DNA of 63,790 nt, counting the filler, from Octopus bimaculoides (Eukaryota), in NCBI RefSeq assembly GCF_001194135.2. It is 9 parts of 8 records of this genome, joined end to end, with 100 filler letters (N's around TTAATTAATTAA, not from the genome) between each part and the next. Parts side by side here need not be neighbours in the genome. Positions count along the whole stretch, not along the records: positions 1 to 25,768 come from NC_068986.1; positions 25,869 to 37,890 come from NC_068986.1; positions 37,991 to 45,145 come from NC_068996.1; positions 45,246 to 54,228 come from NC_068990.1; positions 54,329 to 56,314 come from NW_026312051.1; positions 56,415 to 59,051 come from NC_068997.1; positions 59,152 to 60,433 come from NW_026379675.1; positions 60,534 to 62,685 come from NW_026371221.1; 1 more part is not named here. One strand, 5' to 3'. Of this stretch, positions 1,544 to 63,790 are shown one piece after another. The notes under the pieces are model-generated. The model worked only from the letters and a program-made list of their open reading frames with translations, searched no databases and was not told the origin of the DNA. The first letter of the stretch is position 1. Each line of letters opens with the position of its first letter. The position numbers were made by a program, and so were the translations under genes.

Positions 1544-1960
1544 ATAAAGTAGTTGTATGCTGTCAACTTAATGTGACAGTCCCATGAAGGGAATAATACT
1601 ACTGCTATTTAGCCCTAGGAAGCAGCACCGCTTCCTGTCGGCCTTGACACATTTCCTGTGTCCTTATGTTTACGAGGGGGAAGCAAGCAGCTCCACACAG
1701 CTAAGCCTACATCCAGAGACATGTTTCTGAGTCTTTGTTCGTTATCAGTCTGGAGTAGCAATAGCTTGCTAATTGGAGATACCATATAATAATTCTAGTG
1801 AAACACTGATTTCAAGAATCTTATTTCAAAATTTCAAGAAGGACACAGGAAATGTGTCAAGGCCGACAGGAAGCGGTGCTGCTTCCTAGGGCTAAATAGC
1901 AATAGTATTATTTCCTTCATGGGACTGTCACATTAAGTTGACAGCATGCAACTACTTTAT
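1544..1960. repeat. Fold-back element: 122-bp inverted arms around a 173-bp spacer
   Basis: 1544-1665 is the reverse complement of 1839-1960 with 3 mismatches counted by eye. Confidence 0.95.
1712..1754 (-). ncRNA. Type I hammerhead ribozyme motif with a G8A core substitution (probably inactive)
   Basis: Minus strand reads UCCAGA CUGAUAA CGAACAAAGACUCA GAAA CAUG U C UCUGGA. Perfect 6-bp stem I that extends further, palindromic stem III ACAUGU, GUC cleavage triplet, decayed stem II. Confidence 0.7.
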
Positions 1961-2200
1961 CGCATCACTACTGTATAAATCTCTCTGAGAGATTTAGAAA
2001 TGTATTATTTTTATTGTTAGAAACATAGTTGACAGTCTATAGAAGATAGTCCTTATAGGTGAGTACACGATAGAGTTAGATAAATAGGCCTTAGACCATA
2101 GATGTAACCTACGTAGGTGATAAAATTTATATACATGTAAAATAGATGATAGACGCTACATAACTCGACGTTAGACGATAGATGTGGTAAAATGCCAATA

Positions 2201-2720
2201 CAGGCGTGGTTGTATGGTAAGAATCTTGCTTCAGAACCACATAGATCTGGGTTCAGTCCCACTGTGTGGCACATTCGGCAAGTGTCTTCTACTATAGTCT
2301 CGGGCCGAGCAAATCCTTGTGAGTGGATTTGGTAGACGGAAAATGAAACAATCCTGGCGTATCTATATAAATGTGTGTCTACGTGTGTGTGTGTGTGTGT
2401 GTGTGTGTGTGTGTGTGTGTGTGTGTGTGTGTGTGTGTGTGTGTGTGTGTGTGTGTGTGTGTGTGTGTGTGTGTGTGTGTGTGTGTGTGTGTGTGTGCTT
2501 GTATCTTTACCCCCCCCATCACCACTTGACAACTGGTGTTGGTGTGTTTACGTACCCGTAACTTAGCGGTTCGAGAAAAGAAAGCGATAGAATAAGTACT
2601 CGGCTTAAAAATAAGTCTAGGGGACAACTTGTTCGACTAAAACCCTTCAAGGAGGCGCTCCAGCATGACTGCAGTCAATCAAATGACTGAGACAAGTAAA
2701 AGAATAAAAGAATAAAAGGA
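2201..2720 (+). mobile_element. tRNA-derived SINE family B (CORE-like centre) with internal (GT)n
   Basis: A-box-like TGGTTGTATGG and B-box-like GGTTCAGTCCC; GGCACATTCGGCAAGTGTCTTC core; (GT) tract 2383-2497; GAATAAAA tail. Homologous to 42486-42890 and 44004-44411. Confidence 0.85.
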
Positions 2721-2906
2721 TAAAAGCAAAAGACGTTAAATATTAGACGACAATTGCTAGATTTATAGACGATCGACAATAGATGTTGCACATATATAAG
2801 ATAGATGTTATTTACATATATAATCGATGAAGATGTACATTACATAACAATAAACGAAAAGCGTTCTATACATCAAAGGTAATTATTAGACATTACATAC
2901 GTAGGT

Positions 2907-3098
2907 ATTGGTTTCAAGTTTTGATATAAGGCCAGCAATTTCAGGGGAGAGGGCAAGTCGATTACATCAATTCCAGTGTTCAACTGGTACTTATTTTATC
3001 GACTTAAAAGGCATGAAAGTACAAATCGACCTCAGAGGTATTTGAACTCACAACGTAGACAGACGAAATACCGTAAAGCATTTTGCCAGGTCTCCGCC
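2907..3098 (-). mobile_element. SINE family A copy (degenerate)
   Basis: Reverse complement of the family A body (GAGTTCAAAT...CTTTCATGCC...GTCGATAAAATAAGTACCAG). Confidence 0.75.
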
Positions 3099-60854: not shown

Positions 60855-60995
60855 ATCCGTTCTGAGTTCGAATTCCACCGAAGTCGACTTTGCTTTACAT
60901 CGTTTCAGGGTCAATAAATTAAGTACGAATTGCGTACTAGGGTGAATCTATTCGACCCCACACCTCCACAAAAAGTTCGGGCCTGTTGGCTAGAG
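60855..60995 (+). mobile_element. SINE family A, 3' part
   Basis: GAGTTCGAATTCC B-box and core. Confidence 0.7.
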
Positions 60996-61473
60996 TAGAG
61001 ATTATATTATATTAATTATTTCAAGTTTCCAGTTTAAATAAAATATTCCAATACTATATTCGATCGATTCAATCAACTTCACCCACTTTCCTACACATTT
61101 GGGATGGTCTAAATTAAAGAGAAATACAGATTTTTGCGTACCTAAACAGACCAGTGGACTAGACGACGTGTAGGAATGAGGGACTGCGTGTCTTGTGGTA
61201 TTTCTCTAGCTCTTTGCATTTTAAGTTCCAATGCGACTTGTTTTTAATTGCTAGTCTGGAAAGAGTAGAAATCATTAATTTTGCTATATGTGTGACATGT
61301 GTGAGAGTGATGATGTTAATGNNNNNNNNNNTGACATGTGTGAGAGTGATGATGTTAATGATCCATTTAAACTATCACAGATCAACTCTTGGAAAGAAGA
61401 CAAGAAAATGGAGGACGTTCCAGAAGTTGATATTCTGAGGATGAAGACTTTGCTTCCACAGATGTTATGAAGA

Positions 61474-62101
61474 TACCGAATAATGCAAATGATTTATAAC
61501 TATAATTATTTCTTCATCCCACACCGATTTATGCGGGGATAAACAAAGGGCATAATTGGCTGTGGTCCAAACAATGGCCCATCATTCAAAAAATAATATA
61601 CAATGCCAACCTGTAAATTACAAAAATGGATGCACACAGCCATCATATCAGCTTTGAATGTATGAGCTCTAAATTATCATTAATTTGTGAATCGATAGCA
61701 TCAGTTATATATAATTACTATAATTACTATTGTAATTAGTGTTACAGGTGAGGTCATAATAAACAATATGACAGCGCTGCAGTCTCAATGAGAAGGCTTT
61801 TCATTGGTCAATGGTGACAATGAAACGAGGTGAGACAAATGAACCTCTGTGTAGTTACTGAAATGTATTACTGCCTTTGGAATTAGCTTCCATAGATATT
61901 ATTATGCTACCGAATAAGGCAAATGATTTATAACTATAATTATTTCTTCATCTCCCATCGATTCCTGCGGGGATAAACAAAGGGCATAATTGGCTGTGGT
62001 CCAAACAATGGCCCATCATTCAAAAAATAATATAAAATGCCAACCTGTAAATTACAGTGTACAATAAATTAAAAAATGGATGCACACAGCCACCATATCA
62101 G
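61474..62101. repeat. Diverged ~180-bp direct repeat pair (61474-61651 and 61908-62101)
   Basis: The aligned copies differ by several substitutions and a 16-nt insertion in copy 2. Confidence 0.85.
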
Positions 62102-62935
62102 TGACATGTAATTAGTGACATATAACGATAAATCTATAATTATAGATATATAACAGCATGTAAGTGTAATAAAACTAGGTATGACGAAATGGACTAATAA
62201 AGACAAAACAACTCATGAATTGACTAATGAAAAGTGATAACAACACAATTATCAAATCTTCCCTACAAGTTGATTAGCAAGCCTAACCTCATTTCACTTT
62301 CAAAATATATCTAGTAATTAAAGGGCTGTTGGGTATATAACACCTTGTTATCTGGTTTATAGTTGCAAAGGCAAAGACATACAACGTACAGTGTACAATA
62401 AGCCATGTTTTGTGCGATAAAAACTATGAAGCCTTAGCTTCACGGCCAACATCCTAAATATCAAATGTGATATCTTCATCACTTGTCTGCAACCAAGGGC
62501 AACATAAGAACATTATGTACTTCAAGCACTACGTTAGTCATTGGAAAGGTTTATTTGTTTGATATTATGTAAATTTGTACAGTATGTTCTAAAAACGTTT
62601 ATCATAGAAACTATTAATATAACGGTACTCTGTATTTTAGTTTTTTCTTATGTTCTGTGATTTACAATTTTCGGTGAATTAACATNNNNNNNNNNNNNNN
62701 NNNNNNNNNNNNNNNNNNNNNNNNNNNNNTTAATTAATTAANNNNNNNNNNNNNNNNNNNNNNNNNNNNNNNNNNNNNNNNNNNNGGGGAAAAGGCAAGT
62801 TATGGTGGATGTAGAAGTAGATATTATTCAGAGGATATTTAGTTTAAAAAAAGGGGGGGTTATAATAAAAAAATAAAAAAAAAATAATAATAATAATAAT
62901 AATGCTTAAAACCTAACCTAGTAGGAATGATGGAG

Positions 62936-63790
62936 CTAACGGTAATAAAAGAAGGTATGTTTCTTGAAGTGCTGACACCGGTACGCACTCTGAGTTATTT
63001 GGTTAACTAGGCGATTCTTGTAGAACAGGATATAAAAAAGCTCCAAGTTACAAAGAGGGCAGAAATCCCTACCCTTGTCATAGGGAACTGAGGTGGCCAA
63101 TATGGACCATTCCAAAGAGAATTGCTTATTGCAATCCTTCAGTTCCCAAATAAACTTACTTAGGCCGGTAGTGCTAGCTTTATTTCTATCCCTAAATGAC
63201 GAATAATGATTCGAGATTCTCTTGGTTACCTGTGTCGATGAGCTACCTACGTAATATGAGACATCAGCGTTAGATGTTACCTTGCATTGGTACACTACAT
63301 TTTTGTTCCTTGCATTCGCACTTAAAAACCTAATTCTATTAGGATTTAATTCCGAGATGCTAATCTTATTGCTAATCTTACTAATGTTACAGATATTTTT
63401 ATGATTCCCAATATTGAACATACTACCTATACTAATATCTGAATGACTAATGCCATCATTTGTGTGTGTTAAATTATTGGCGTAATTATTATTGTTACAG
63501 GTATGAACATTACTAATATTACGATCATATCTAGGATGGCCGTCTAGAGAAGAATCCCAAAACCTGAGATTATGGGAAGATACAATCTGTAACAAATTCT
63601 TAGTGTTCGAAAACCCAAATCTAACCTTATGCGAGTTGATAATTGGGTAATAGTGAGAACCTTTAGGGAAGTTCCTACTCACCGCGTATCGGAACTGCCA
63701 GACCAAATCTGATTTAACCTGCTTCCCAAACGGGAGGATAAGCCAGATATTCTTATTATTATCAACAGATCTAGATGTAGTATTAGAGTG
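62936..63790 (-). CDS. Penelope-like retroelement ORF, 3' part (post-RT region plus GIY-YIG endonuclease), open to the window edge
   Basis: The frame is open from 63790: NKNIWLILPFGKQVKSDLVWQFRYAVSRNFPKGSHYYPIINSHKVRFGFSNTKNLLQIVSSHN (IWFNPPY..HFP..IFN..KVSYS..HN pattern). Then VVY..YVG..KRISNHYSSF..LSKFIWELK..CPLCNLE..LVN..RCQH. Stop at 62936. Confidence 0.85.
   Translation of the reverse strand, partial: HSNTTSRSVDNNKNIWLILPFGKQVKSDLVWQFRYAVSRNFPKGSHYYPIINSHKVRFGFSNTKNLLQIVSSHNLRFWDSSLDGHPRYDRNISNVHTCNNNNYANNLTHTNDGISHSDISIGSMFNIGNHKNICNISKISNKISISELNPNRIRFLSANARNKNVVYQCKVTSNADVSYYVGSSSTQVTKRISNHYSSFRDRNKASTTGLSKFIWELKDCNKQFSLEWSILATSVPYDKGRDFCPLCNLELFYILFYKNRLVNQITQSAYRCQHFKKHTFFYYR

What the first reader, a model, noticed from the sequence alone, without database searches (positions are those of the whole stretch)
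1544..63790. Possible Penelope-hammerhead (pLTR/retrozyme) system: three unrelated type I HHR families plus an open PLE ORF in one window
The motifs at 1712, 18214/18448 and 41733 share no flanking sequence. All are type I with a palindromic, dimer-competent stem III (ACAUGU, ACUCUGAGU, ACCAGCUGGU). PLE pLTRs and non-autonomous retrozymes are known to carry such HHRs. Four motifs in 64 kb suggest a large, diverse HHR repertoire in this genome, possibly mobilised by GIY-YIG PLEs like the one at the window end. No link between these HHRs and that particular ORF is shown by the sequence.
Basis: partly seen in the sequence, partly recalled or inferred. Interest (0 to 1): 0.75.

Follow-up and report, generated by a model that had tools for sequence, protein, structure and literature searches.

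The report
Penelope-pasted hammerhead repeats, two origins
The four self-cutting-RNA (hammerhead) motifs are copies of common jumping repeats: two belong to one family of small non-coding 353-base units and two are the tail end of a Penelope-type jumping gene, all likely pasted in by Penelope enzymes, a kind of system already described in other animals and not linked to the particular gene at the window's end.

Summary
The motifs are real: 2 descriptor hits in the window against 0 in 100 shuffles, with multi-copy families in G000. Two of the four are mutated copies. The window is a pack of 9 stretches, so 'one window' means little. The families are not three unrelated ones. Motifs 1712 (A) and 41745 (C) lie in colinear, 59%-identical 353/354-nt ORF-less units that insert as partial tandems, head-to-head arms, a one-sided ~54-nt tail and target duplications. 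That is a non-LTR retrozyme carrying the Penelope (PLE) footprint. The 18.2/18.45-kb pair (B) is the mirrored 3' end of a Hydra-like PLE. The ORF at the window end is a 284-aa endonuclease-only fragment of another Hydra-like PLE with its own, different hammerhead. No helper for A/C was found. RNA reads look like read-through; cleavage and circles are not shown. PLE hammerheads, retrozymes and PLE mobilisation are in print (PMC4209133, PMC7229834, bioRxiv 10.64898/2026.07.22.740005). The scan found this kind before, here and in other genomes.

The parts
1534..1543 (.). Left target-site duplication of the family A insertion
   Evidence: 9 of 10 bases equal to 2015-2024
1544..1840 (-). Family A long arm: 5'-truncated 353-nt unit (unit ~53-353), ending at fixed end site 1
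   Evidence: (L031)
1712..1754 (-). Type I hammerhead of family A; this copy has G8A and a broken stem II pair; predicted cut between 1718 and 1717
   Evidence: 22 of 32 aligned copies have the intact core; 812 exact-pattern copies in G000
1839..1960 (+). Family A short inverted arm (unit ~232-353), 122 nt, 98% complementary to 1544-1665
1961..2014 (+). One-sided ~54-nt tail, which is the start of the next unit (end site 2)
2015..2024 (.). Right target-site duplication of the family A insertion
18128..18361 (-). Family B left arm: 3' end of a Hydra-like PLE with its tail, abutting (TA)n
18218..18280 (-). Type I hammerhead of family B, intact core, 8-bp stem II with one extra C before GAAA
   Evidence: 54 exact-pattern copies in G000
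18371..18545 (+). Family B right arm, no tail; inverted repeat with the left arm (183 nt, 87%)
18452..18514 (+). Damaged hammerhead of family B (C3U; GAAA read as GAGA)
41731..41950 (+). Family C: single 5'-truncated arm of a 354-nt unit, ending at site 1, no tail; distant homologue of family A
41745..41786 (+). Type I hammerhead of family C, intact core, A.C mismatch at the base of stem II, 10-nt palindromic stem III
   Evidence: one of 8 exact-pattern copies in G000
62936..63790 (-). C-terminal 284 aa of a Hydra-like PLE ORF (GIY-YIG endonuclease, N-rich insert); the RT lies off the contig; not the parent of A, B or C
81..305 (-). Separate Hydra-like RT-thumb fragment 1.2 kb beyond the 3' end of the A arm; read as an independent relic
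   Evidence: E down to 2e-10

Best explanation
The window's motifs are copies of two kinds of hammerhead-bearing retroelement ends, all likely pasted by Penelope-like (PLE) reverse transcriptase/endonuclease enzymes: families A and C are one superfamily of ORF-less 353/354-nt retrozyme-type units, family B is the 3' end of a Hydra-like PLE, and the ORF at the window end belongs to another Hydra-like PLE with its own hammerhead. Shown: the unit structure, homology, two fixed 3' end sites ~54 nt apart, head-to-head arms, target duplications and the B-to-endonuclease linkage. Inferred mechanism: a PLE protein cuts both strands of AT-rich DNA and starts reverse transcription on each cut end at one of two internal sites of the RNA, giving two arms of which one bears the tail. 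For A/C the template is continuous through both the unit boundary and the ribozyme cut site, so it would be a ligated circle or an uncut tandem transcript. The ribozyme would serve to cut multimers into monomers for circularisation (inferred from published retrozymes, not shown here).
For: Units of 353/354 nt in partial tandems: 8 of 27 A loci and 9 of 29 C loci run tail-into-unit for more than one unit; 8 loci in G000 hold two A ribozymes one unit apart, 2 of them with both cores intact. A vs C: 59% identical, z 14.9 and 10.0 (0 of 200 shuffles), z 13.2 and 7.7 for the part 3' of the ribozyme alone; A or C vs B z 1.4 and 1.0. 13 of 51 predicted pairs show two-sided changes in a 12-sequence alignment. 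Circular fold z -6.5 and -9.5 for A, -1.8 to -2.7 for C. One arm at site 1 and the other with the tail: 12 of 21 two-armed A loci, 9 of 12 two-armed C loci. Duplications of 12 nt or more with at most 1 mismatch: 12 of 22 loci vs 11 of 462 cross pairs. PLE protein within 1.5 kb of only 3 of 68 A/C locus records, none as a parent. B colinear downstream of a GIY-YIG end in 10 of 29 endonuclease-anchored loci (1 circular by construction), inverted upstream in 3 more, vs a diverged B-like hit in 1 of 60 other PLE loci. Hydra marks in the ORF family: DKT, CxxC..E..N..CxH, no CCHH (vs PMC8557442 section 11). Only 1 of 63 arm 5' ends lies within 3 nt of the cut site and 32 of 63 run through the ribozyme. 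Two-site internal initiation and cleavage of both strands shown in vitro for a lizard PLE (PMC11167929).
Against: No autonomous PLE with an A/C-like end was found among the PLE loci held, so the helper is unnamed. RNA reads from three runs of one study cover family A on both strands about equally, are mostly 90-95% alike, 71-72% run on into unlike sequence, and show no pile-up of starts or ends; family C reads lie almost only on the tail. This is what read-through of many dead copies gives, unlike the abundant circles of mussel retrozymes. The library type is not known to keep circles. Long tandem arrays were not seen (about two units at most). The A ribozyme has a C.A mismatch at the base of stem II, which may lower activity. 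Loci were the top BLAST hits to the window copies, which enriches two-armed and long insertions, and duplication boundaries were set by hand, some after seeing the flanks.
Confidence: 0.8

Rival explanations
1. A and C are simply 3' stumps (pseudo-LTRs) of an autonomous PLE that was not sampled, as B is; no separate retrozyme exists.
For: Same footprint as B; many PLE families in G000 (13,832 first-look candidates for one endonuclease); fragmented assembly with many gaps; RNA looks like read-through.
Against: The tail runs back into the same unit with period 353/354 in 8 of 27 and 9 of 29 loci; 8 ribozyme-to-ribozyme dimers; no upstream ORF in 68 locus records, whereas B shows one at once; unit length and fold kept across 41% divergence.
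Confidence: 0.1
2. A and C are linear tandem-transcript parasites: a few master dimers are transcribed and copied uncut by a PLE enzyme, and the ribozyme is a vestige with no circular stage. This differs from the best reading only in the RNA intermediate.
For: Arms pass through the cut site; no RNA ends at the cut site; ribozyme cleavage was not needed for insertion by the lizard PLE in vitro (PMC11167929); 8 of 9 Xenopus dimers did not cleave in vitro (bioRxiv 10.64898/2026.07.22.740005).
Against: Core and stems are kept in both A and C despite different stem sequences; A units fold as stable circles; only 8 dimer loci against 812 exact ribozyme copies, yet more-than-unit insertions are common among the loci seen.
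Confidence: 0.35
3. The fold-backs at 1544-1960 and 18179-18553 are MITEs (DNA transposons with terminal inverted repeats) that happen to hold ribozyme-like words.
For: Long, near-perfect inverted repeats.
Against: Arm lengths differ from locus to locus, many copies are single-armed, one arm carries a tail, units run in tandem; B follows a PLE endonuclease.
Confidence: 0.02
4. All four motifs serve, or are mobilised by, the particular PLE at the window end.
For: That family is abundant, has long open frames in places and is Hydra-like, as is B's parent.
Against: Its own 3' end holds a different hammerhead, D (12 of 30 loci); its RT is 40% identical to B's; no A/C similarity at its end; it lies on another contig.
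Confidence: 0.08

Closest known systems
Metazoan non-LTR retrozymes (Cervera and de la Pena 2020, PMC7229834: outline not read, section 14 and passages seen)
   Same: Small (170-400 nt; mussel 350-390 nt) ORF-less AT-rich units with one type I hammerhead, tandem copies, target duplications longer than 4 bp; PLEs named there as the likely helper.
   Different: Here mostly 5'-truncated arms of 0.3-2 units in head-to-head layout with a PLE tail; 'inverted', 'opposite' and 'tail' occur 0 times in that paper's text. Circles and cleavage are shown there, not here.
Animal retrozymes as non-autonomous PLE derivatives (Li, Clavereau, Pollet, bioRxiv 10.64898/2026.07.22.740005; main text parts 1-3 of 5 read; supplements closed)
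   Different: Vertebrates plus 3 insects and a coral, no mollusc; evidence is co-occurrence and homology. Here the evidence is the insertion footprint, and no parent pLTR was found for A/C.
PLE hammerheads (Cervera and de la Pena 2014, PMC4209133; parts 1-2 of 4 read)
   Same: Type I motifs with palindromic stem III, an extra nucleotide between A9 and 10.1, many divergent families per genome, mostly single truncated copies, and pairs on opposite strands 100-700 bp apart.
   Different: A, C and D have an unpaired or mispaired base on both sides of stem II, B only on the 3' side; B, C and D keep a longer stem III than the minimal motif.
Hydra-clade PLEs (Craig et al. 2021, PMC8557442; section 11 and passages read)
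   Same: C-terminal GIY-YIG, DKT motif, no CCHH, CxxC and CxH around the conserved E and N, canonical hammerhead, (TA)n targets, partial tandem + inverted copy + one-sided tail.
   Different: The window family has lost the CxCX5C linker that its relatives keep and carries an N-rich insert; tails here are ~54-65 nt against 30-40 nt.
Poseidon PLE of Anolis, in vitro (Frangieh et al. 2024, PMC11167929; parts 1-2 of 4 read)
   Same: Two internal RT start sites that define the tail; both DNA strands cut and extended; AT-rich targets; ribozyme cleavage not needed for insertion.
   Different: An autonomous element of another clade; use of a small non-coding or circular template in trans was not tested in the parts read.

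Membership tests
Type I hammerhead ribozyme | Core CUGANGA / GAAA / UH with stems I-III | tested here: met
   Intact in B-left and C of the window; A and B-right are mutated copies. Intact in 22 of 32 A, 12 of 26 B, 10 of 34 C copies.
Type I hammerhead ribozyme | G10.1-C11.1 pair directly at the core | tested here: inconclusive
   A has C.A, C has A-U, A.A or A.C at the base, with a G-C pair next; B has G-C with one extra C. A natural U.U mismatch there is reported in PMC3088659 (passages).
Type I hammerhead ribozyme | Covariation of stems | tested here: met
   Stems I-III differ in sequence among A, B, C and D but pair; within young family A the copies are too alike to inform.
Type I hammerhead ribozyme | Self-cleavage | not testable with these tools
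   No pile-up of read ends at the cut site in cDNA libraries, which would not be expected to keep such ends.
Non-LTR retrozyme (A, C) | 150-400 nt ORF-less unit with one type I hammerhead | tested here: met
   353/354 nt; no parent ORF beside 68 locus records.
Non-LTR retrozyme (A, C) | Tandem copies with two ribozymes | tested here: met
   A: 8 dimer loci, 2 with both cores intact. C: partial tandems only among 29 loci; no genome-wide dimer search was run for C.
Non-LTR retrozyme (A, C) | Abundant circular RNA | tested here: inconclusive
   Unit-end-to-unit-start joints occur in RNA (30-37 reads per run) but also in DNA contigs; the rest looks like read-through.
Non-LTR retrozyme (B) | ORF-less tandem unit | tested here: not met
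   B continues upstream through a microsatellite-like 3' UTR into a GIY-YIG ORF.
EN+ PLE insertion product (A, B, C) | 5' truncation, inverted copy at the 5' end, partial tandem | tested here: met
EN+ PLE insertion product (A, B, C) | Optional one-sided tail (two 3' end sites) | tested here: met
   A 12 of 21 and C 9 of 12 two-armed loci; B tail in 14 of 22 copies shown (counted by eye).
EN+ PLE insertion product (A, B, C) | Target-site duplication in AT-rich DNA | tested here: met
   12 of 22 vs 11 of 462, for A and C; not tested for B.
Hydra-clade PLE (window ORF family) | DKT motif, C-terminal EN without CCHH, CxxC and CxH | tested here: met
Hydra-clade PLE (window ORF family) | CxCX5C linker | tested here: not met
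   Present in 5 of 5 aligned outside relatives and in another family of G000 (L150), degenerate in the window family.
Hydra-clade PLE (window ORF family) | Placement in the Hydra clade on an RT tree with named references | not tested
   No named PLE reference proteins were on hand; assignment rests on motifs, hence 'Hydra-like'.
Hydra-clade PLE (window ORF family) | Hammerhead near the 3' end | tested here: met
   Family D motif in 12 of 30 loci; off the contig in the window.

The most novel reading that the evidence does not exclude
A and C are an old, structurally conserved superfamily of ~353-nt circular RNAs with a variant hammerhead junction that have no parent pLTR left in the genome. 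They recruit a Penelope enzyme in trans through a conserved AC-rich loop at the two start sites and are copied round the circle from both ends of a DNA cut. Their insertions would then be direct genomic proof that PLE enzymes move animal retrozymes, and the dimers at L218 and L221 would be ready substrates to test it.
Probability: 0.35. Interest if true: 0.6.

Novelty: new member of a known kind. Interest (0 to 1): 0.33.

Why it matters
The helper enzyme of animal retrozymes is proposed in print from co-occurrence and homology. Here ORF-less units carry the PLE-specific footprint (two fixed ends, one-sided tail, head-to-head arms, duplications) at dozens of loci, and two natural dimers with intact cores exist, so the PLE-helper and circle-template ideas can be tested directly. 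No paper on such units in cephalopods came up. Beyond that, the parts are of known kinds and the window itself holds mostly damaged copies.

Tried and rejected
Rfam gathering scan: 0 hits. Strict descriptor without extra bases finds only B-left. Pfam does not name the endonuclease or RT; assignment came from motifs and homologues. Search for a helper with an A/C-like end: an A+C profile over the B, window-ORF and second-group PLE loci hit only independent insertions of A/C relatives. Pfam PF26215 is not in the genome-search library. Sequencing-run search: no RNA holder listed. A hammerhead-like hit at 5366 and one at 11301 with a U3-A8 core were not followed and are taken as chance. The short hairpin shared before end site 1 in A and B was judged too short to show homology (z 1.4). 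The paper on dimeric PLE hammerhead variants (PMC5785218) is not held, so whether the two-sided stem II mismatch is described there is open; supplements of PMC4209133 and PMC8557442, which hold motif alignments, were not opened and may bear on it. The automated classifier mis-called at least two two-armed loci (L034, L039) as single-stranded. Duplicate loci were dropped before counts (A: L056, L059, L060; C: L084; B: 7 duplicates; L167). Look-up of earlier findings by sequence gave nothing.
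Full report
Observation. The window is a pack of 9 stretches. Motifs A (1712) and B (18.2 and 18.45 kb) lie on G000:C6, C (41745) on C16, and the ORF on a 1005-bp contig. G000 is a 2.34-Gb animal genome; that it is an octopus is my inference and the wording of earlier scan notes, not a tool result. All four motifs are present. B-left and C have intact cores; A has G8A and B-right has two core changes. A relaxed descriptor gives 2 hits against 0 in 100 shuffles. Exact patterns give 812 A, 54 B and 8 C copies in G000, with 0 for the reversed controls. 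The motifs are therefore real repeat-borne hammerheads, but half of those in the window are damaged.

Anatomy in the window. A sits in a 471-nt insertion: a long arm (1544-1840, minus), a short mirror arm (1839-1960), a tail (1961-2014) and a 10-bp duplication with one mismatch. The two B motifs are the two arms of one palindromic insertion, with a tail on the left arm next to (TA)n. C is a single truncated arm.

Families A and C. Mapping natural units onto the fetched loci shows 353- and 354-nt units whose tail is the start of the next unit. More than one unit in tandem: 8 of 27 A and 9 of 29 C loci. One arm ending at site 1 and the other at site 2: 12 of 21 and 9 of 12 two-armed loci. Duplications of 12 nt or more: 12 of 22 two-armed loci against 11 of 462 cross pairs; boundaries were set by hand and two matches are (TA)n. 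These loci are top BLAST hits, so the shares are biased upward. A and C are colinear homologues, 59% identical, also outside the ribozyme, with two-sided changes in 13 of 51 predicted pairs (related rows are not independent events). A units fold far better than shuffles as circles, the older C copies only weakly. PLE protein lies near 3 of 68 A/C locus records and never as a parent. Eight loci hold two A ribozymes one unit apart; L218 and L221 keep both cores.

Family B. Upstream of B the copies share a microsatellite-like stretch and then a GIY-YIG C-terminus. Anchoring on that endonuclease, B follows colinearly in 10 of 29 loci (one circular by construction) and lies inverted upstream in 3 more; 1 of 60 other PLE loci has a diverged B-like piece. 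B is thus the 3' end of a decayed Hydra-like PLE, not a retrozyme.

The ORF. It is the last 284 aa of a very abundant PLE family. Longer copies show an RT with DKT and a C-terminal endonuclease without CCHH but with CxxC and CxH, as described for the Hydra clade; the CxCX5C linker is lost and no tree was built. Its 3' UTR holds a fourth hammerhead, D, about 1 kb after the stop, off the contig in the window. Its RT is 40% identical to B's. No tie to A, B or C was found.

Mechanism. The two fixed ends match the two internal RT start sites that define the PLE tail in vitro, where both DNA strands are cut and extended. I infer that each cut end primes one arm, giving head-to-head arms with one tail. 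Arms pass through the ribozyme cut site (32 of 63) and end near it only once, so the copied RNA was a ligated circle or an uncut multimer. Rare genomic dimers, the stable circular fold and the published retrozyme cycle favour a circle, but do not prove it. The head-to-head copies cannot form a dimer ribozyme in cis, and the B through-transcript is predicted to bury the motif.

Evidence against. Raw RNA reads of three runs from one study (about 6% of each read) give 480-657 reads on an A unit, both strands alike, diverse, mostly running on into other sequence, with no start or end pile-ups; unit-wrap joints occur but also exist in DNA. C reads lie almost only on the tail. So no sign of an abundant circle, in libraries that may not keep circles. 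No helper with an A/C-like end was found.

Prior work. PLE hammerheads, including opposite-strand pairs, are in PMC4209133; the insertion layout in PMC8557442 and PMC3846280 (passages); retrozymes with PLEs as likely helpers in PMC7229834 and bioRxiv 10.64898/2026.07.22.740005. PMC6765202 was seen as passages. A 2026 octopus repeat annotation has 0 occurrences of 'ribozyme' or 'retrozyme' (PMC13282606, passages), and searches listed no paper on cephalopod retrozymes. Earlier notes of this scan report the same kind in this genome and in others; my reading was written down before that look-up.

Verdict. Real, well-supported and of known kinds: a retrozyme-type superfamily with a PLE footprint, a PLE 3' end, and an unrelated PLE fragment. 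Interest 0.33.

Noticed in passing
L093-L117 (3' UTR of the window ORF's family): Fourth hammerhead family D with a very long stem II and subfamily-specific stem changes.
   Followed up: partly
L150:~7270-7320; L139:2816-2872; L116:1133-1195; L111:3003-3050; L216:4961-5211: Further hammerhead families: one after another Hydra-like endonuclease (L150), two unassigned or B-like, and two more distant relatives of the A/C unit (L111, L216). The repertoire is wider than the window shows.
   Followed up: partly
L192-L213, about 2650-2870 in element orientation: A second PLE group with a YVDD-type RT carries minimal hammerheads without stem III in its 3' end.
   Followed up: partly
L147, L148, L149: Family B insertions whose 5' part (endonuclease or RT) is inverted relative to the ribozyme-bearing 3' part.
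   Followed up: no
window 63330-63530 (-): Asparagine-rich insert between thumb and endonuclease, absent from outside relatives; N-rich inserts are described for rotifer Penelopes (PMC3846280).
   Followed up: no
window 12541-13785, 38121-38591, 52611-53186, 59152-59574: LINE fragments; the last matches an AP endonuclease weakly (E 0.0011). The label RTE-like is recalled, from no call.
   Followed up: no
window 21100-21590 and 23273-23728: Transposase-like fragments (weak HTH_32 hit); the label Tc1/mariner is recalled.
   Followed up: no
window 44736-44915 and 7940-7993: A 67-nt tandem repeat (2.7 copies) and a short TAACCC-type run.
   Followed up: no
L042:1885-2000: In A, end site 1 lies in an AC-rich single-stranded stretch near a helix that A and C both keep between the tail and the unit's 3' part; a candidate recognition element for the helper enzyme.
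   Followed up: partly
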